Source of the DNA: Acidobacteriota bacterium
GTDB taxonomy: Bacteria; Acidobacteriota; Polarisedimenticolia; J045
Length of the DNA: 64,000 bases
Reading direction: 5' to 3'
Assembly (NCBI GenBank): GCA_046331425.1
Contig: JAXLQU010000007.1
Coordinates: 55,437-119,436 of the forward strand
Both the position numbers and the translations under genes were made by a program. Shown piece after piece: positions 14,766-43,768 of this stretch. The notes beneath the pieces were generated by a model. The model saw only the letters and a list, made by a program, of their open reading frames with translations, searched no databases and was not told the origin of the DNA. Position 1 is the stretch's first letter. Each line of letters starts with the position of its first letter.

Positions 14766-15824
14766 GTGACTGAATCCGAACGGAGTCGTTACGCCTCTTT
14801 CGTGCCGCGAAGCTCTCGAGCTCGCGAGGCGCTCTGGCTCTGCAACTACTGCGGCTCCGATCGCCAGAGCCCTGAGGAATTGGGTCTGCAGCCGGATGTG
14901 GTGACGGAGTTGGCGCGTGCTCATCGGCTCTCCGCGGTTGCGGGCTTCAAGCTGCACGCGGCCCAGGCGGTCTCGACCGAATGGCAGCGCACCATGGTGC
15001 GCGACTGGCGCCAAGCGCTCGGTGACGAAACGTTGTTCGGCAGTGAACTCGAGCGAATCGATGCAGCGATGTCACGAGCGGGAATTCGTTTCGTCCTGTT
15101 GAAGGGCGCCGACTTGGCGCGACGCGGGATCTACCACCCTGGCCAGCGCACGCACAATGATCTTGATCTGCTGATCGAACCAAGGGATCGCGATGTCGTG
15201 CATCGGCTCTTGAAGGAACTGGGATTTCACTCCGATCATCCGGCGCCTGACGCCGCCGCGCGGCATTGGTTCGCCAGCACCTACCGCCACAGTACGCAGG
15301 CGCGAGTGCAGTTGGATCTGCATTGGGATCTTGGCGCTCCGGGACGCGGCGAGTGGAATATCACGCGCGTCATGGAAACGTCGGAACCGTTGGGGGAGTG
15401 GCGCGCCGCACGGCGGCTGTGTCGAGCCGATCTGTGGGCGCACCTAGCCCTCCACGCCGTTGCCTACCATGGCGCGGCCGGGCGATGGATCTGGTGGCTG
15501 GACATCCATCGATTGCATCAGCAGTCACCGGTGACCGCGGGAGAGTGGGAGATGGTGCGCGCGCGTGGCGCCGAGATAGCACTACAGGCAGCGCTGTTGC
15601 GTGCTGCGGGGCTATTCGACCCGCGCAGGTTCGCCGATCTCGAGACCCGCTGGCGGGCTCGAGCCGTGGCACGTTGGGGCGCTCGATTCGAACGTGGTGG
15701 AGATTCGCGGTTGAAGCGCTGGTTGATCGGGGCCCTGAGCTTGGATCGGCCGAGCGACCTCGGCCTCGCCGCGATGAGCGTGGCGCGGCGACTCTCCGAT
15801 TCAGTGCGAGCCAAGAAAACCTAA
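14766..15824 (+). CDS. nucleotidyltransferase-family protein (PF14907-like 'uncharacterised nucleotidyltransferase')
   Basis: IRFVLLKGADLARRGIYHPGQRTHNDLDLLIEPRDRDVVHRLLKELGF matches the KGxxL...R.x.DiDLLv core of this family. GTG start. The 3' end overlaps the convergent rSAM gene by 4 nt. Confidence 0.8.
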   Translation: MTESERSRYASFVPRSSRAREALWLCNYCGSDRQSPEELGLQPDVVTELARAHRLSAVAGFKLHAAQAVSTEWQRTMVRDWRQALGDETLFGSELERIDAAMSRAGIRFVLLKGADLARRGIYHPGQRTHNDLDLLIEPRDRDVVHRLLKELGFHSDHPAPDAAARHWFASTYRHSTQARVQLDLHWDLGAPGRGEWNITRVMETSEPLGEWRAARRLCRADLWAHLALHAVAYHGAAGRWIWWLDIHRLHQQSPVTAGEWEMVRARGAEIALQAALLRAAGLFDPRRFADLETRWRARAVARWGARFERGGDSRLKRWLIGALSLDRPSDLGLAAMSVARRLSDSVRAKKT

Positions 15825-16909
15825 CCGAGATCGCAAACGACCTGTCGTTCTCCGAACTTGGTCTTGAGCATTTCCTCGATGGTCTGCCCGCCCTTGGCGT
15901 GCGCTTCCTGGCGCACTTCGGCTTGCGTGCAGGCCCAGGAGTTGGGGCCGAAGAAGTCGCCGTCCTCGAACAGCGAATCCAGACTGCATCGACCACAGAA
16001 TGAATTGTTGTGGCAACCCGAGCAGGTCGGAAGGTCCTGCGAAGTGATGTTCCGCAGGCGCAGCAGCAAGGGGGAACTCTCCCAGATCTCGCGGAACGAC
16101 TGTTCTCTCAGCGAGCCGGCAGGTGGAAATCGCTGTGAGCACGGGTAGACCAGGCCGCGCGCTGAGATCAACGCGACGCGACGCGCCGTTGCGCAAATGG
16201 CCTGATCATCGTTCGGTGTGGTGCCCGATCCGGGCTGCACCGCAAGGCCGAGATGCGGATCGACGCAAATCCCGAGCAGGTCGGCGCGATTCATGCGGTG
16301 GGCGAGTGGGGAATCGTCGAGGTCATAACGAACCACGAGAGTAGGGTCGAAGCGATACTCCGCGCCGATTTCGCGCGCGAAAGAAATGACCTGCTGATAC
16401 TCCCGAGTCAGGCCAGCCATGATCGGCGCCTTGACCACGGTCGGGACCCCGCGTTCTCGCAGCATCCGGGCGGCACGCAGCGTCCGGGCGTGACTCCCCG
16501 GAATTCGCGTGATCTCGTCGTGCTTGGCGGCGTCCATCGAGTAGAGTGACAACTCGACGGCGACCACACCAATGCTGGCGATCTGATCAGCGACTGACTC
16601 TGTGATCAACGTGCCATTGGAAAAAATCCGCAACGCAAAACCGAGGTTGCGTGCGTAGCGCACCAATGGAAGCGCGTCTTTGCGGGTGAAGATCTCTCCC
16701 CCCGTAAACGTCAGGAACAAAGTCCCCATGGCATGGAGCTCATCGAGAATGCGTTCGGCTTCTGTTTGCGTCAGCTCGTCGTGAACGTCTCCCAGATCGA
16801 CGTAGCAGTGCTTACAGTCCTCGTTGCACCGATTGGTCAACTCGAACAGCACCGAGATCGGAATCTGCTGGCGCAACGCTTCGGTCAGAACCTTGGTCAT
16901 TCCGATCAT
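15821..16909 (-). CDS. radical SAM/SPASM-domain peptide-modifying enzyme (PqqE-like), no fused RRE domain
   Basis: LFELTNRCNEDCKHCYVD carries the CxxxCxxC radical SAM cluster motif near the N-term, and TFTGGEIF is the SAM-binding GGE motif. The C-terminal SPASM domain has 7 Cys including CSGCHNNSFCGRC. The maximal ORF starts with TTG at 16954; I chose ATG 16909 (MIGMTKV...), which has GGAG 9-12 nt upstream. Confidence 0.85.
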   Translation of the reverse strand: MIGMTKVLTEALRQQIPISVLFELTNRCNEDCKHCYVDLGDVHDELTQTEAERILDELHAMGTLFLTFTGGEIFTRKDALPLVRYARNLGFALRIFSNGTLITESVADQIASIGVVAVELSLYSMDAAKHDEITRIPGSHARTLRAARMLRERGVPTVVKAPIMAGLTREYQQVISFAREIGAEYRFDPTLVVRYDLDDSPLAHRMNRADLLGICVDPHLGLAVQPGSGTTPNDDQAICATARRVALISARGLVYPCSQRFPPAGSLREQSFREIWESSPLLLRLRNITSQDLPTCSGCHNNSFCGRCSLDSLFEDGDFFGPNSWACTQAEVRQEAHAKGGQTIEEMLKTKFGERQVVCDLG

Positions 16910-17196
16910 GAGCTGATCTCCGTCACACGCTTCACGAGCGCTTGAGGACTCCAAGCGGTTGCGGCTTCGGTCCGGGTGTGGCCCTCAGCGACGCTAGTTT
17001 CTTGGGCTTGGGGCGGAAGAACGCGAATTCAGGCAAGCGATCGATGGCGCCCCAAAAACTCTGATCCGGCGTGAACTCGAGTCGGTACGGGTGACTCTGC
17101 GGAAGCACCTCACCGCGCTAAGGGTAATGCGGACTGAAATCGGCGGGAGCGGTGCTCCGCCGGCCTTCAAAGAGTGCGGCAGCGCATCGGCTGGTT

Positions 17197-17644
17197 TCAA
17201 TCAGTGACTCGATGCTGGGGTGCAAGGCCAAGAAGAAGAGTGCGCTTCCAAGGGGCCGAGGGAATTTTTACGTGCCAGAAGGGGTTCCGTGGACGCGAGT
17301 TCCGGATCCCACATCTGCGGACCACTACCATTTCATCCGCGAGCACAATCTGACCAGCATCTCGAGCAGCGATCGTGCTCTTGCCTGCGCCCGATCGACC
17401 CCGAGAAGACCACGCCGAAGTGGTCGCGCTTTACCACAGCCGCCGAGTGCAGCAGAGTGCTTCCTTCACGAAGCAGCACACCGCCCAGGGCGATCCGAAC
17501 GAACTGGGTCCAGATGCGCGAGGAATCGAGAATCGCCGACCCGTCCGAGCTCGAACTCCGCCCAGACCCTCGAAGCCGTCGCCCTCGATTCTTGCAGCGG
17601 ACAGGCTGCCGCTCGCCGCCGGCGGCGATGTAGGATGCAGCCGC
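17197..17644 (-). pseudogene. HprK-like P-loop kinase remnant (frameshifted, internal stops, lower GC)
   Basis: One frame gives ...RIALGGVLLREGSTLLHSAAVVKRDHFGVVFSG. A +1 shift at a C4 run (17399-17402) continues with GRSGAGKSTIAARDAGQIVLADEMVVV. Joined, this is the HprK C-domain signature (hydrophobic strand, G.SG.GKST, about 10 aa, L.ADD/E). Only about 100 codons are recognisable. Flanking sequence is AT-richer with stops in all frames. Confidence 0.45.
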
Positions 17645-17854
17645 TCAGGCCGACGGGTCGGGTCGACCTTGAGTGTCCAGCTGAACTCGGGGCGCCCACT
17701 TTCCTTCAAGAACCCCGCGTACGTTCGCGCAGCCGGGTCGAGAACTCGGCTCCTGTCACGGAAATGTCGAAGGCCTGCGATTTGGAGAATCGCGGGGTCA
17801 GCAAGCGGGAGAATGAACTGGGCCGCGCTGTTGCAGCTCGATTCGGAGACGAAA

Positions 17855-18001
17855 TCAATCGCGAGCACCGGCGCCGCAGTTGAATGGCTGACTGGTGCAA
17901 GAGGCCGAGAAGACCACCGGCTCGTAGTCCTCTTCCCATTCGATGGCAGGAACCTGCCATGTCTTCTTGTTGGTCGAACTGGATACGGTCGTCGAATTCA
18001 T
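17855..18001 (-). CDS. candidate RiPP precursor peptide, 48 aa (not in ORF track)
   Basis: ATG at 18001 lies 27 nt downstream of the stop of 18029..18676, with GGGGG 6-10 nt upstream. Product MNSTTVSSSTNKKTWQVPAIEWEEDYEPVVFSASCTSQPFNCGAGARD then TGA. It lies between the PqqD-like gene and the rSAM gene on the same strand. Whether it is really coding is unproven. Confidence 0.4.
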   Translation of the reverse strand: MNSTTVSSSTNKKTWQVPAIEWEEDYEPVVFSASCTSQPFNCGAGARD

Positions 18002-18028
18002 GCAGACCCCCGCAAGGTTGTGGGCCGG

Positions 18029-18676
18029 TCAACGGCCGCCTTCGATTCTAAAGGAAGTCGCGCTGGAAGAGAGCACCTTTCCAGCTTTCACCGCCGAGAT
18101 TTCCACCTGCCAAGTCCCGTAGAGCCCGTGACCGGTAACCCATGTTCCGCTCACCGGGAGCGGTACAGCCACGAACGCCGCGTTCTTCATCTGTCGCGGG
18201 GTCAATGATCCGGCTGGAAGTGCCCGCGCCAAACGTTTCGCGCGCAGGATGGGAAGGGTTTCGACTGGATGTGGGGCCAGGTCATCACGCAACACCGCGG
18301 TCTGTGTTCCTGCCGGATCGACTGGGTCGATCCGGGTCTCGTAGATGTTGCCATCCGGCAACACGAACTTGGCGACTTGATCGAACCCAGCGTCCCCGAC
18401 TCGGGTGCGGTCGTAGACTGCGATGATGTAGAGCTGAAGCGTCTGTGGTCCATCGAATGGACCTGTATTCAGCCGATTCGGCGCGGTTCGTGACTGCAAC
18501 AGCGATTGAGGGTCGACGTCGGTCACGAACACCCCTACAACAGCGTTGCCCGCAATCGGCTCCGGTTTTGGTTTGGCGATGATCGCAGCATGAGCGGTGA
18601 CGCCGGGGAGTCCCAACGTGATCGCGAGGGCGGCGAGCAGCTTTCGATCGATGCGCATCATAGTCGTCATCCTCAT
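18029..18676 (-). CDS. secreted hypothetical protein
   Basis: 215 aa. Signal peptide MMRIDRKLLAALAITLGLPGVTAHAA. The true start is probably the second or third ATG (18664/18661), which has GAGG upstream. No motif recognised. Confidence 0.65.
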   Translation of the reverse strand: MRMTTMMRIDRKLLAALAITLGLPGVTAHAAIIAKPKPEPIAGNAVVGVFVTDVDPQSLLQSRTAPNRLNTGPFDGPQTLQLYIIAVYDRTRVGDAGFDQVAKFVLPDGNIYETRIDPVDPAGTQTAVLRDDLAPHPVETLPILRAKRLARALPAGSLTPRQMKNAAFVAVPLPVSGTWVTGHGLYGTWQVEISAVKAGKVLSSSATSFRIEGGR

Positions 18677-18716: not shown

Positions 18717-21076
18717 TCAGTTGATCTTCACCCAGTGGTACGTGCCGCCCGTGGTACCGACAACGATCCCTTGGTTGGTGCCGTTGTTGTAGTCGAAGGT
18801 TGGTGTACCGATCGTCGTTCCGGCCTCGACGGTCCAAGAACGAACGACCGCGCCCGAGGTGGCGTTGATCTCGTAAAGTTTTCCGTCGGAGGATCCCACA
18901 TACGCGTAGGTGTCGTTGCCTCCGGTGACGTCACGCAGCACGATCGGCGCACTCGGCGACGCAATGCTCGTGGTCCAGTAGGTGGCTTCGTCGAACGTAC
19001 CGTCTCCGAGTAACTTGATGCCGTGCACCTTCGAGTCCGTGGTCCAGACGATCCAGTTCACCCACAAGGCGTTCTCGGCAATGCTATTTCCCGGCGCCAC
19101 GCCGCGGACCGCGCCGTCGCTTTGCGCACAGCCGCCAGCGACCGTGCAACTGTCCAGACTCAGCAGCGAGCCACCCGACGCAACCAGGGCGTTGTAGACA
19201 TACACGTCGCCGGTGGTGTTTCCCGCGACCAGGATCCGATCCGAGCCTTTCTTGGCAATCGCAAGGCCAGCGTCGATGTCTCCGATGCCGCTGATTACGG
19301 CGTATTCGGGCACATTGAATGCCGGCGTCGAGTTGACTTCGAGGACCACGATCGACTCGCCACCATCGTCTCGCACGCCGACGTAAACCAAGTTGTTGGC
19401 GCTATCGCGGTACTGGATCGTGGGTGCGCCGTTGGAGATACCGAGAGTACCGCCACCGTTGTAGCTGTCTCGCAGCGTCGCCAGATCATGGCTGTACATC
19501 AGAATCTTGTTGTTGGCGGCGCCGCAGCGAGTCGCAACCACGACGACATCGTCGCTGTTGTTGGAGTTGGCGTCGAAGCCGTCGAGCATGACAACAGGAG
19601 ATGTTTGCAGGAGGCCCGAAGTGCACCCAGCGTCGCCACCGGTGCCGGCGACGTTTCGTGTCGCCTCCGCGCCCGAGGTGCCATCGTCGGCGGAGTAGCG
19701 GTATAGGCGACCCGGCTCTGCGACGAAACGTAGCAGGTGTAGTCCGTTCCTCCTGCATCGAGATCGTCGCACAGCGGTCGTGCTTGTACAGCACCGCCGG
19801 CGAGCGGTGGGACCCAACCGCCACGGCTTCCATCGGTCTCACTCATCCGTTGGAGCAAGCGATCGTTGCCGATCCCAATCACGTATGCAGCCGGAATCGC
19901 TCCGACCGGAGCCAAGGTTGTGGCGTTGGTCTTGAACGCGAACTTGAAGGACGAGACCGCGCGCGGATAGCCGGTCGTCGCCACGCCGCTCGAGTAGTTG
20001 TAGTCGCCGTCGTAGGCGAAGGCCTTGTAGTAGTAGGTTGTGCCATTGGAGACCAACAGGTCGTTGCAGGAGTCGTTGGGGCTATCGCCTGAGTCGACGA
20101 TGCACGTTACCGACGCCGTACCGATGGAGTCGCCGAGGCTGTAGGAGGTGCCGGCGACCGGTGCATCCGTCACCGCCGAGCCGGTCTGACTCAGAACCAA
20201 CATTCCTGCGTAGTCAGTGTCGAGCGGGTTCTCCCACTCGGCGGTGACGATCAGATCGGAGGACGCCGCTGTCACCTTGCTTGGATTGCCTGGGGGGACC
20301 GTGTCAGCCAGCGTAAATGCCCACTGATTCCCGGTTGTCGCCGAGGCAGAACTGATATCGCCGCTGGCCTTGTACCAAAGGCCGACCGTGCCCGCGCCGT
20401 TCTCACTGCCGACCAGGTTCGGGTGGTCGGCGGCCGCCGCCCCCGCTTCGCTGACGATCTCGACAAACGCTTCGTCGGTGACGGTATCCAGAGCGAGTTG
20501 CACGGTTACCAGAACATCGCCGTCGATGTTCGGCACACTCGTCCACTGCACGACGAAGCAATGGTCGTTTCCTCCAGCGCCATCGCGATCGACATTGCAA
20601 GTGGTTGACTGGTACTTGACTGAACCACCGGCACTGGGATCCAGGTCGTCACCGTACGCATAGACCGCGTTGTTCGGGGGCCCCGAATCGGGCACGCTGG
20701 AGCCACCGGCGTCATTGGTGTAACCGGCGCCAAAAGACACGTACCCGTTGGACGAGATGTACGCGCCGGAGTAGGTGCTGCCGTACCAAGTGAACGAGCC
20801 ACCGATGTTGGTGACCAGCTTGTAGCAATCGTCGCCGCTACATCCACTGGGCTTCCAACCGGTCACGGTCGTGCCGGTTCCCGAAATGTCCGGTATCCAG
20901 TTGTTGGCGTCGAGTTGGCAATAGTAGCCGCCGGTGTCTTTGACAGCGGCCCCCGTGCACTCCGAGTCGGTTGCGAAACTGATCGTCGACAGGGTTCCAA
21001 CGACGACGACTGCGAATGCACGACACAACGTCGGCCACGTCCTCTTGTTGCGACCCATCTTCTCGCTCCCGTTCAT
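18717..21076 (-). CDS. large secreted Cys-rich protein with C-terminal beta-propeller-like repeats; interrupted by a 1-nt frameshift
   Basis: ORFs 19499..21076 and 18717..19817 are consecutive frames of one gene. The upstream frame is real to ...GGTDYTCYV and the downstream frame is real (GC3 about 80%) from ...AEPGRLYRYSADDGTSG. Restoring one A in the A3 run at 19726-19728 gives ...CYVFVAEPGRLY.... Signal peptide MGRNKRTWPTLCRAFAVVVVGTLSTISFA. Its ATG overlaps the PqqD-like stop (ATGA). Confidence 0.6.
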
Positions 21077-21483
21077 AACCTGTCCTCCGAGGCGTTCCCC
21101 GGCGCCGCGGCCTCAGGCTCGCGTTGCGAGCCCGAAGGGCCCGTGGGCGCCTCGACGATCAACCCACGAGAGGCCAGCTCTCGTAGGAATGCGTGCACGT
21201 CGGGAGCGGCAGCCGCCTCGTCCAGGCCGGCGCTCGCCGCGAGTACCCGCGTTACGTCTTCCACAGTGCGGACCCCGTCGAGCAGTCCCCAAACCTGGGA
21301 ACCGTTTTCGTTGAGTCCGAGTAGTTTTCTTCCTTCGTAGTGCAGCACTACGGCCTTGCCGCCCAATGTTTGCTTGGCCAGACGCGGGTTGTGTGAGAAG
21401 CGCGTTGCCGTCGAGAACGGAATCGGCCGCTCTGAGGAGGGGACCACTTTTCCTGCCTTTCCTCTCGTCGGCGGTGTGGGCAC
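21073..21483 (-). CDS. PqqD-family protein (stand-alone RiPP recognition element-like)
   Basis: LAKQTLGGKAVVLHYEGRKLLGLNENGSQVWGLLDGVRTVEDVTRVLAASAGLDEAAAAPDVHAFLRELASRGLIV is a textbook PqqD/RRE sequence. The maximal ORF starts with GTG at 21483. An internal GTG at 21447 with AGGAAAGG upstream is the more likely start. Confidence 0.8.
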   Translation of the reverse strand: MPTPPTRGKAGKVVPSSERPIPFSTATRFSHNPRLAKQTLGGKAVVLHYEGRKLLGLNENGSQVWGLLDGVRTVEDVTRVLAASAGLDEAAAAPDVHAFLRELASRGLIVEAPTGPSGSQREPEAAAPGNASEDRL

Positions 21484-43692: not shown

Positions 43693-43768
43693 GCGGGCGT
43701 AGCTCAGTTGGCAGAGCATCAGCTTCCCAAGCTGAGGGTCGCGGGTTCGACCCCCGTCGCCCGCTCCA
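43693..43768 (+). tRNA. tRNA-Gly (anticodon CCC), CCA encoded
   Basis: The 76-nt sequence GCGGGCGTAGCTCAGTTGGCAGAGCATCAGCTTCCCAAGCTGAGGGTCGCGGGTTCGACCCCCGTCGCCCGCTCCA folds as a cloverleaf. Acceptor stem is GCGGGCG/CGCCCGC; anticodon stem TCAGC/GCTGA; loop TTCCCAA gives anticodon CCC with U33 and A37; T-loop TTCGACC; discriminator U73. Confidence 0.85.

What the first reader, a model, noticed from the sequence alone, without database searches (positions are those of the whole stretch)
17855..18001. Previously unlisted 48-aa ORF with precursor-peptide character between the PqqD-like and rSAM genes
The ATG at 18001 (minus strand) starts 27 nt after the stop of the upstream secreted-protein gene, with GGGGG at -6 to -10. 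Product: MNSTTVSSSTNKKTWQVPAIEWEEDYEPVVFSASCTSQPFNCGAGARD.

The N-half is hydrophilic and acidic, with the feel of a leader peptide (S/T-rich, then an IEWEEDYEP patch). The C-terminal 18 residues are small-residue-rich with two Cys (C35, C42) and Ser/Thr. Those residues could be thioether donors for a SPASM enzyme or phosphorylation sites for an HprK-like kinase.

It fell below the 60-aa cutoff of the ORF track. Its 3' end is overlapped by a 145-aa Arg/Ser/Pro-rich ORF (17431..17868) that I judge to be spurious.
Basis: partly seen in the sequence, partly recalled or inferred. Interest (0 to 1): 0.8.

Follow-up and report, generated by a model that had tools for sequence, protein, structure and literature searches.

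The report
Conserved precursor peptide gene, uncharacterized RiPP system
The 48-codon ORF is a real, strongly conserved small gene that almost certainly encodes the substrate peptide of an unstudied radical-SAM peptide-modification system found in Acidobacteriota and Myxococcota, although in this genome the neighbouring kinase-like gene of that system is dead.

Summary
The ORF at 17855..18001 (-) is exactly as described. It is a real gene. Homologues of 45-78 aa exist in more than 200 protein clusters. Substitutions among six close homologues fall 67/69/226 on codon positions 1/2/3, and every homologue keeps an ATG behind a G-rich Shine-Dalgarno-like site.

The peptide sits in a conserved module. 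It is next to a PEPCK/HprK-fold P-loop protein ('ScmC-like', PF27840), a PqqD-family peptide-binding protein and a radical SAM/SPASM enzyme. A divergent PF14907 nucleotidyltransferase is usually present too. Of 20 distinct loci with enough flank, 19 carry the enzymes.

Family invariants are P18, W22, E24, P28, S34 and C35, plus a second Cys 7 or 9 residues after C35. No Pfam or NCBIfam model matches the peptide, no enzyme reaches a curated family cut-off, and I found no paper on the system.

One correction: the '145-aa spurious ORF' is the wreck of the ScmC-like gene. That gene has lost its start codon, carries 17 frameshifting indels and evolves neutrally in this lineage. The peptide and the rSAM gene stay under strong purifying selection.

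Precursor identity is well supported by comparative evidence. The chemistry (thioether formation, phosphorylation) is inferred only.

The parts
17855..18001 (-). 48-codon precursor-peptide gene, stop codon included
   Evidence: Sequence read. Homologues. Codon-position bias. dN/dS 0.06 against L012. All 3 substitutions on the window branch are at third positions.
18007..18011 (-). GGGGG Shine-Dalgarno-like site, 5 nt upstream of the ATG
   Evidence: G-rich sites (GGGGG, GAGGGG, GGGAGG) lie at the same place in all homologous loci.
17960..18001 (-). Codons 1-14: N-terminal part that varies in length and sequence
   Evidence: Alignments A1 and A2 and the 127-sequence family alignment.
17909..17959 (-). 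Codons 15-31 (W-QV-P-A-IEW-E-E-D-YEPVVF): conserved patch. It is the proposed binding motif for the PqqD-family protein (inference).
   Evidence: Family invariants P18, W22, E24 and P28. Near-invariants [YW]15, [IV]20, [YF]26 and F31.
17858..17908 (-). Codons 32-48 (SASCTSQPFNCGAGARD): Cys-containing core. S34 and C35 are invariant, Q38 and N41 nearly so, and the second Cys (C42) is always present, 7 or 9 residues after C35.
17791..17854 (-). Spacer after the peptide stop. Relatives carry a strong GC-rich hairpin here; in the window it is destroyed by indels.
   Evidence: Folding z-scores are -2.8 to -4.3 in L012, L009, L006 and L001, each with a different sequence, against 0.2 in the window. 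The indels are listed.
16932..17790 (-). Pseudogene of the ScmC-like (PEPCK/HprK-fold P-loop) protein.
   Evidence: Fragments lie in three frames with in-frame stops, and a Walker A GRSGAGKST is visible. Compared with the intact 297-aa gene of L012 (92% identical DNA) there are 20 indels, 17 of them frameshifting, and the ATG is lost. The 53 window-branch substitutions fall evenly over codon positions, 18/16/19.
15821..16909 (-). Radical SAM/SPASM enzyme, 362 aa. It probably starts at ATG 16909 rather than the TTG at 16954.
   Evidence: Pfam Radical_SAM 2.9e-24 and SPASM 1.1e-8. CX3CX2C plus the full 7-Cys SPASM motif. dN/dS 0.009 against L012. 86% identical to the L009 protein over 362 aa.
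21073..21483 (-). PqqD-family protein (RiPP recognition element type)
   Evidence: Pfam PqqD 5.2e-15. Below every NCBIfam subfamily cut-off. Present in syntenic loci.
14766..15824 (+). PF14907 (NTP_transf_5) nucleotidyltransferase-like gene, convergent with the rSAM gene
   Evidence: Pfam 4.9e-31. Found next to the module in about 14 of 20 loci.
18029..18676 (-). 215-aa protein with a predicted signal peptide (judged by eye) and no known family. It lies directly upstream of the peptide gene in the close subfamily.
   Evidence: Syntenic 209-220 aa genes.
18717..21076 (-). Gene for a secreted protein of about 786 aa (Ig-like Big_5 and beta-propeller signals in relatives). In the window it is split into ORFs of 525 and 366 aa by a 2-nt insertion near 19714.
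   Evidence: Intact at 786 aa in L012. The window-branch substitutions still look constrained, 4/4/37.

Best explanation
The ORF is a real gene for the ribosomal precursor (substrate) peptide of an uncharacterized RiPP-type modification system.

Proposed working:
1. The conserved [WY]xxPx[IV]xWxEx[YF]xPxxF patch (W15-F31) is bound by the discrete PqqD-family protein, which presents the peptide to the radical SAM/SPASM enzyme.
2. That enzyme modifies the invariant S34-C35...N41-C42 core. The most likely reaction is one or two intramolecular thioether cross-links from the two conserved Cys. I put about 0.4 on this specific chemistry.
3. In intact systems a PEPCK/HprK-fold P-loop enzyme (ScmC-like) and a PF14907 nucleotidyltransferase add accessory modifications. 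By analogy these would be phosphorylation of a Ser/Thr followed by decoration of the phosphate.
4. In this genome the ScmC-like gene is a long-dead pseudogene while the peptide and rSAM genes are still under purifying selection. Here only the rSAM-dependent step (plus possibly the nucleotidyltransferase) can operate, which shows that the kinase-like step is dispensable.

Shown: the gene is real, is under purifying selection and belongs to a conserved module; the domain and fold identities of the enzymes; the pseudogene state. Inferred: binding by PqqD, the target residues, the type of chemistry and the fate of the product.
For: Gene reality:
- homologues in 6 and then 208 clusters.
- differences fall 67/69/226 by codon position, 173 synonymous against 83 non-synonymous, with Ser codon-family switches.
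- conserved ATG and SD-like site.
- dN/dS 0.06; window-branch changes 0/0/3.

Module:
- Searches show the gene orders.
- in 20 distinct loci with at least 2 kb downstream, rSAM is present in 19, ScmC-like in 19, PqqD in about 19 and PF14907 in about 14.

Enzymes:
- Radical_SAM plus SPASM with all 7 auxiliary Cys.
- the closest solved relatives are SkfB (a thioether former) and PqqE.
- invariant H123, Walker A and D161-E162.

Kinase-like step dispensable:
- window pseudogene.
- L025 has the rSAM gene directly after the peptide gene, and L035 carries a 358-nt deletion inside the ScmC-like gene.
Against: - There is no experimental evidence for translation, binding or modification.
- No protease gene is evident in the cluster, and an exporter is seen only in some distant loci, so a leader/core split and export are not demonstrated.
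- The window subfamily lacks the C-terminal Ser/Thr-containing tail of the main family, so the lasso-type C-terminal Ser analogy does not transfer directly.
- One family member (L017) sits without any of the enzymes within 9 kb.
- Two genes of the operon are disrupted in this genome, so the locus may be on its way to being lost.
Confidence: 0.8

Rival explanations
1. The peptide is the precursor of a peptide-derived cofactor or of a cross-linked small enzyme subunit, in the manner of PqqA/PQQ, MftA/mycofactocin or the QhpC subunit matured by QhpD. It would not be a free secreted natural product. The rSAM would cross-link Cys to an acidic or Asn/Trp residue, and the product would serve the co-operonic secreted beta-propeller/Ig-like protein.
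For: - The core is almost invariant across two phyla, as in cofactor precursors and unlike typical bacteriocin cores.
- It is a single chromosomal copy in conserved synteny.
- The rSAM is under extreme constraint (dN/dS 0.009).
- No protease or immunity gene is visible.
- In the close subfamily the peptide is co-operonic with a secreted protein of about 786 aa and one of 215 aa.
- W22, E24 and C35 are invariant. My recollection (not tested here) is that QhpD makes Cys-Asp/Glu thioethers and that QhpC carries a Cys-Trp quinone.
Against: - ABC-2 exporter genes follow the module in several distant loci, which suggests export of a free product.
- The secreted partner proteins are not conserved across the wider family.
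- No dehydrogenase partner is consistently present.
- PqqA, PqqE, MftC and PqqD family models are not matched at their cut-offs.
- The 786-aa gene is frameshifted here while the peptide is still maintained.
Confidence: 0.2
2. It is a real small protein that is not post-translationally modified, for example a regulator, chaperone or adaptor co-transcribed with the enzymes. The rSAM would then act on something else, such as the secreted proteins or a small molecule.
For: Conservation alone does not prove that it is a substrate. The best NCBIfam scores of the rSAM are to the haem-pathway enzymes NirJ2 and AhbD.
Against: - Those scores are far below the cut-offs (151 against 500 bits) and cover only the rSAM core.
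- A discrete PqqD-family peptide-binding protein is always present.
- The peptide is the only partner conserved across all gene orders.
- Its size, its Cys pair and the hairpin after its stop codon fit a precursor.
Confidence: 0.07
3. It is a chance ORF in GC-rich DNA, and the conservation reflects an overlapping feature on another frame or strand.
For: Many ORFs of this size occur by chance. ORFs overlap it in other frames, for example 17706..18032 (-) and 17375..18208 (+).
Against: Third-position bias appears in this frame only, together with Ser codon-family switches, conserved start and stop codons, and length variation confined to the N-terminus. The overlapping ORFs differ in length in L012.
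Confidence: 0.01

Closest known systems
SynChlorMet (SCM) cassette of TIGRFAMs/NCBIfam: ScmC, ScmD (PqqD-like), ScmE and ScmF (rSAM/SPASM)
   Same: It combines the same parts: a PEPCK/HprK-fold 'ScmC' protein (PF14907 aside), a discrete PqqD homologue and a PqqE-like rSAM/SPASM enzyme. Relatives of the decayed window gene carry precomputed PF27840 (ScmC) hits. From memory, not verified here, the SCM cassette is described as having no identified precursor peptide.
   Different: There is one rSAM rather than two. All scores are far below the SCM equivalog cut-offs: ScmC 27-28 against 125 bits, ScmD 22-26 against 100, ScmE 85 against 400. A PF14907 gene is added, the taxa differ, and here a precursor candidate is identified.
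Tailoring set of phosphorylated or glycosylated lasso peptides (paeninodin, pseudomycoidin; HPr-rel-A system)
   Same: An HPr-kinase-fold enzyme, a PF14907-type nucleotidyltransferase and a PqqD-family protein act on a ribosomal peptide (PMC8498205).
   Different: No lasso cyclase or B2 protease gene lies in the cluster. The HprK_rel_A score is 28-29 against a cut-off of 200 bits. An rSAM/SPASM enzyme takes the place of the lasso machinery. The window peptide has no C-terminal Ser.
Thioether RiPPs made by rSAM/SPASM enzymes (sactipeptides such as SkfA/SkfB and subtilosin/AlbA; ranthipeptides)
   Same: A small Cys-containing peptide lies next to an rSAM enzyme with a full 7-Cys SPASM domain. 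SkfB is the closest solved structure by sequence.
   Different: The enzyme has no fused N-terminal RRE and uses a separate PqqD protein. It is far below the SkfB, AlbA and StsB cut-offs. There are only two Cys, and the peptide matches no known precursor family. A thioether has not been demonstrated.
PqqA/PqqD/PqqE and MftA/MftB/MftC cofactor pathways
   Same: A short peptide, a discrete PqqD-type chaperone and an rSAM/SPASM enzyme, with a very conserved core. The aromatic-x-x-Pro start of the conserved patch recalls PqqA (from memory; a lead, not a test).
   Different: The peptide gives no PqqA or MftA model hit even at E<=1. PqqE scores 93 against 381 bits and MftC 111 against 265. There are no PqqB/C or MftD/E/F genes, and the core is Cys-based rather than Glu/Tyr or Val-Tyr.

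Membership tests
RiPP precursor peptide (generic) | Small ribosomal ORF, under selection as a coding sequence, adjacent to its modifying enzymes | tested here: met
   for coding selection. for adjacency (19 of 20 loci).
RiPP precursor peptide (generic) | Bipartite leader/core organisation, with the leader bound by an RRE | tested here: inconclusive
   There is a variable N-terminus, a conserved W15-F31 patch and a conserved Cys core. No cleavage site or protease was identified, and binding cannot be tested with these tools.
RiPP precursor peptide (generic) | Post-translational modification of the peptide demonstrated | not testable with these tools
   Needs co-expression and mass spectrometry.
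SynChlorMet cassette | ScmC, ScmD, ScmE and ScmF each above the equivalog cut-off, with two rSAM/SPASM genes | tested here: not met
   ScmC 27-28 against 125 bits, ScmD 22-26 against 100, ScmE 85 against 400, ScmF 71-74 against 400. Only one rSAM gene per locus.
HprK/P-PEPCK fold P-loop kinase superfamily (the ScmC-like neighbour) | PEPCK/HprK fold with Walker A and conserved His and Asp | tested here: met
HprK/P-PEPCK fold P-loop kinase superfamily (the ScmC-like neighbour) | Intact gene in this window | tested here: not met
   Start codon lost, 17 frameshifting indels, in-frame stops and a neutral substitution pattern.
Lasso peptide with kinase/nucleotidyltransferase tailoring (HPr-rel-A) | Lasso cyclase (Asn-synthetase-like) and B2 protease present; C-terminal Ser on the precursor | tested here: not met
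   No such domains in the cluster. The peptide ends in ...GAGARD. HprK_rel_A scores 28-29 against 200 bits.
PQQ biosynthesis (PqqA) | Peptide matches a PqqA model; PqqE and PqqD reach their cut-offs; PqqB/C present | tested here: not met
   No PqqA hit at E<=1. PqqE 93 against 381 bits and PqqD 25 against 46.
Mycofactocin (MftA) | MftC at cut-off; peptide ending in ...GVY | tested here: not met
   MftC 111 against 265 bits. The peptide C-terminus is different.
Sactipeptide/ranthipeptide | rSAM with a complete SPASM domain (two auxiliary clusters) next to a Cys-containing peptide | tested here: met
   CX3CX2C, CX12GX4C, CX2CX5CX2C and a later Cys. C35 and C42 are conserved.
Sactipeptide/ranthipeptide | Cys S to C-alpha/beta/gamma thioether in the product; membership of a known maturase family | not testable with these tools
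   The chemistry is unknown. All sactisynthase models are far below cut-off: SkfB 65 against 300 bits, AlbA 58 against 850, StsB 88 against 625.

The most novel reading that the evidence does not exclude
This peptide belongs to the founding precursor family of a widespread, unstudied RiPP class (or peptide-derived cofactor class). I found at least 208 peptide clusters and at least 761 ScmC-like clusters, in Acidobacteriota, Myxococcota and probably beyond. The class would be defined by a [WY]xxP...W.E...P..F...SC(x6-8)C precursor, a discrete PqqD protein, an rSAM/SPASM enzyme, a PEPCK/HprK-fold P-loop enzyme and often a PF14907 nucleotidyltransferase. Its chemistry would combine a radical cross-link with phospho-type tailoring that has not been described. 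It would also show where to look for the so far unidentified precursors of ScmC-type (SynChlorMet-like) cassettes.
Probability: 0.5. Interest if true: 0.75.

Novelty: new variant of a known kind. Interest (0 to 1): 0.62.

Why it matters
It gives a concrete substrate candidate to a large set of 'hypothetical' rSAM/PqqD/ScmC-like gene cassettes in hard-to-culture soil and sediment phyla. That makes their chemistry directly testable by co-expression.

The family's few invariant residues (P18, W22, E24, P28, S34, C35 and the second Cys) give sharp mutagenesis targets.

This genome's dead kinase-like gene beside a still-constrained peptide and rSAM pair is a natural experiment. With the two ScmC-less variants, it suggests that the radical SAM step is the core of the system and the kinase-like step an accessory one.

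It also shows again that ORF-length cut-offs hide the key gene of RiPP clusters.

Tried and rejected
- Exact-sequence look-up of the window peptide found nothing. The closest relative differs by one residue (L012).
- Pfam and NCBIfam scans of 16 family peptides at E<=1 gave no family.
- NCBIfam and Pfam naming of the rSAM, PqqD and ScmC-like proteins gave only sub-threshold hits. The local Pfam copy did not report PF27840, although precomputed tables do.
- Literature searches for SynChlorMet, ScmC, PF14907, HprK with SPASM, and HPr kinase with radical SAM and RiPP found nothing on this system. Haft and Basu 2011 (PMC3133131) is not held.
- The first attempt at a metagenome scan failed because alignment A2 was too diverse.
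- Lasso peptide, PQQ and mycofactocin readings were rejected on the membership tests.
- I considered sequencing error as the cause of the frameshifts in the ScmC-like gene and rejected it. The indels include deletions of 5, 6 and 12 nt, the start codon is lost, and the substitutions are spread evenly over codon positions on the window branch only.
- I did not try to model the 215-aa and 786-aa proteins.

Full report
**1. Observation**

The minus-strand ORF 18001..17855 encodes MNSTTVSSSTNKKTWQVPAIEWEEDYEPVVFSASCTSQPFNCGAGARD. It starts 27 nt after the TGA of the upstream 215-aa gene, and GGGGG lies at -6 to -10. In this roughly 62% GC window such an ORF is unremarkable on its own: one search lists 165 ORFs of at least 40 aa in 16 kb. 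The case therefore rests on comparative evidence.

**2. It is a real coding gene**

- A protein search found six homologues of 45-59 aa. They have a variable N-terminus, and 25 of the 48 residues are invariant, nearly all in the C-terminal 34.
- Over the last 35 codons of six homologous genes, pairwise differences fall 67/69/226 on codon positions 1/2/3. That gives 173 synonymous against 83 non-synonymous codon differences. Ser37 is encoded by AGT, AGC or TCG.
- Every homologue has an ATG preceded by a G-rich SD-like site.
- Against the closest relative (L012, an uncultured Acidobacteriota MAG, 92% DNA identity over 10 kb) the gene shows 4 synonymous changes and 1 non-synonymous change.
- The overlapping ORFs in other frames cannot explain this pattern.

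**3. It sits in a conserved module**

In the close subfamily (eight distinct loci, all Acidobacteriota where named) the order is:
PqqD, a secreted protein of about 780-880 aa, a secreted protein of about 210-220 aa, the peptide, a ScmC-like gene, rSAM/SPASM, and then a convergent PF14907 gene. One locus has two tandem peptide genes.

A profile search widened the family to 208 clusters of 45-78 aa. Labelled members include Myxococcota. The peptide again lies beside the ScmC-like, PqqD and rSAM/SPASM genes. A divergent PF14907 gene is usual and an ABC-2 exporter is sometimes present.

I then ran a metagenome scan and an HMM census. Among 20 distinct loci with at least 2 kb downstream, rSAM is present in 19, ScmC-like in 19, PqqD in about 19 and PF14907 in about 14. 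The one orphan is L017.

A more distant ScmC-like/PqqD/rSAM locus in Ca. Sulfotelmatobacter carries a 56-aa ORF with the same logic...YEKP...SC-x8-C.

**4. Family signature (127 sequences)**

- Invariant: P18, W22, E24, P28, S34, C35.
- Nearly invariant: [YW]15, [IV]20, [YF]26, F31, Q38, N41.
- The second Cys lies 7 residues after C35 in the window subfamily (SCTSQPFNC) and 9 residues after it in the main family (SCAKQPGNPGC).
- No Pfam or NCBIfam model matches any of 16 members at E<=1.

**5. The enzymes**

- *rSAM.* It has CX3CX2C and a complete 7-Cys SPASM motif and no fused RRE. It is far below every NCBIfam cut-off: the best scores are NirJ2 at 151 against 500 bits, MftC at 111 against 265, PqqE at 93 against 381 and ScmE at 85 against 400. 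The nearest solved sequences are SkfB and PqqE.
- *PqqD.* The protein matches Pfam PqqD (5.2e-15) but no curated subfamily.

**6. What is special in this window**

The stretch between the peptide and the rSAM gene is not empty, and the 145-aa ORF is not simply spurious. It is the wreck of the ScmC-like gene.

- Fragments lie in three frames with in-frame stops, and a Walker A GRSGAGKST is still visible.
- Of the 28 indels between the window and L012 over 10 kb, 23 fall in 17090-17838.
- Inside the coding sequence there are 20 indels, 17 of them frameshifting. Some are deletions of 5, 6 and 12 nt. The ATG is gone.
- L012 and L013 have intact genes of 297 and 317 aa.

I polarised the substitutions with L013 as outgroup. 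Counts are by codon position 1/2/3.

| Gene | Window branch | L012 branch |
|---|---|---|
| ScmC-like | 53 (18/16/19, neutral pattern) | 29 (9/2/18) |
| rSAM | 22 (1/1/20) | 22 (2/0/20) |
| Peptide | 3 (0/0/3) | 2 (0/1/1) |

So the peptide and rSAM have stayed under strong purifying selection for about as long as the kinase-like gene has been drifting.

Two other natural variants point the same way. L025 has the rSAM gene directly after the peptide gene, whereas its relative L054 has a ScmC-like gene in between. L035 is L031 with a 358-nt deletion inside the ScmC-like gene.

The 786-aa gene is also split here by a 2-nt insertion near 19714. Its substitution pattern is still constrained (4/4/37), so the event is recent or is an error.

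**7. Expression signal**

Most close relatives have a strong GC-rich hairpin immediately after the peptide stop. Its sequence differs between genomes (z -2.8 to -4.3 in L012, L009, L006 and L001). The window has lost it (z 0.2). This fits a precursor-type arrangement in which a stem-loop separates an abundant precursor transcript from the enzyme genes. That reading is inference.

**8. Mechanism**

- *Best supported.* The peptide is the substrate. PqqD binds the W15-F31 patch, and the rSAM/SPASM enzyme modifies the S34-C35...N41-C42 core. Thioether formation from the Cys residues is the most likely chemistry. It is what SPASM enzymes do on Cys-bearing peptides in several characterized systems, such as SkfB and AlbA (established knowledge). 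It is not shown here.
- *Accessory steps.* In intact systems the ScmC-like enzyme probably phosphorylates a hydroxyl. Candidates are the invariant S34, or the Ser/Thr-rich tail of the main family. PF14907 may then decorate the phosphate, by analogy.
- *In this genome.* That branch is lost.
- *Rivals.* A cofactor or cross-linked-subunit role (like PQQ, mycofactocin or QhpC) is favoured by the near-invariant core and the lack of a protease, but opposed by the exporters and the inconsistent partner proteins. An unmodified small protein is unlikely. A chance ORF is refuted.

**9. Comparison and novelty**

The design is closest to the SynChlorMet cassette and to the kinase/nucleotidyltransferase tailoring of lasso peptides. 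It fails every membership test for those families, and for the PQQ, mycofactocin and named sactisynthase families. Eight literature searches found no description, although subscription journals are not covered.

I class it as a new variant of a known kind, namely an rSAM/RRE-dependent RiPP. It comes with an unannotated precursor family and an unusual enzyme set.

Interest is moderate to high as a genome-mining lead. It is tempered by the lack of any experimental data and by the partial decay of the locus in this genome.

Noticed in passing
window 16932-17790 (-): The ScmC/HprK-like gene is a pseudogene. Its start codon is lost, it has 20 indels (17 frameshifting) relative to a relative that is 92% identical, and its substitutions are neutral on the window branch. 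The flanking peptide and rSAM genes remain constrained.
   Followed up: yes
window about 19714 (gene 18717-21076, -): A 2-nt insertion (CAGAGCCGGGTC against CAGAAT--GGTC in L012) splits the 786-aa secreted-protein gene into overlapping ORFs of 525 and 366 aa. The substitution pattern is still constrained, so this is a recent lesion or an assembly error.
   Followed up: partly
window 17791-17854; L012 5138-5171; L006 567-598; L001 10145-10174; L009 10140-10194: Relatives have a strong GC-rich hairpin right after the peptide stop codon, with a different sequence in each genome. Indels in both arms have destroyed it in the window. It may be an attenuator or a transcript-stabilising element.
   Followed up: partly
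L004/L005 9748-9897 and 10001-10162: One relative carries two tandem precursor genes of 49 and 53 aa. Their conserved parts differ at 3 codons but have 17 synonymous codon differences, so this is an old duplication held under selection.
   Followed up: partly
L025 (against L054) and L035 (against L031): These are natural variants without an intact ScmC-like gene. In L025 the rSAM gene follows the peptide gene directly. L035 is 99.6-100% identical to L031 except for a 358-nt deletion inside the ScmC-like gene. Both contigs are short, so an assembly artefact is not excluded.
   Followed up: partly
L017 9001-9237: A 78-aa family member has a full conserved motif but no rSAM, PqqD or ScmC-like gene within 9 kb. 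It sits among FG-GAP, Ser/Thr kinase and FGE-sulfatase domain genes.
   Followed up: no
L021/L022 6328-6498: A Ca. Sulfotelmatobacter locus with ScmC-like, PqqD and rSAM genes has a 56-aa ORF (…KPYEKPGFRYEQVFVTSALSCGKLTSTQSGCSLNTKVS) and an extra 172-aa gene. The same precursor logic probably extends to the much larger ScmC-like family.
   Followed up: partly
window 18029-18676 (-): The 215-aa secreted-protein gene shows more first- and second-position changes on the window branch (8/3/11) than on the L012 branch (0/1/6). This may mean relaxed constraint alongside the decay of its neighbours.
   Followed up: no
window 16909-16954 (-): The mechanical rSAM ORF starts at TTG 16954 (377 aa). Relatives and the alignment indicate that the real start is ATG 16909 (362 aa, MIGMTKVL...), just downstream of the ScmC-like stop at 16932-16934.
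   Followed up: partly
window 43693-43765 (+): This tRNA is the only Rfam match at gathering threshold in the 64-kb window.
   Followed up: no
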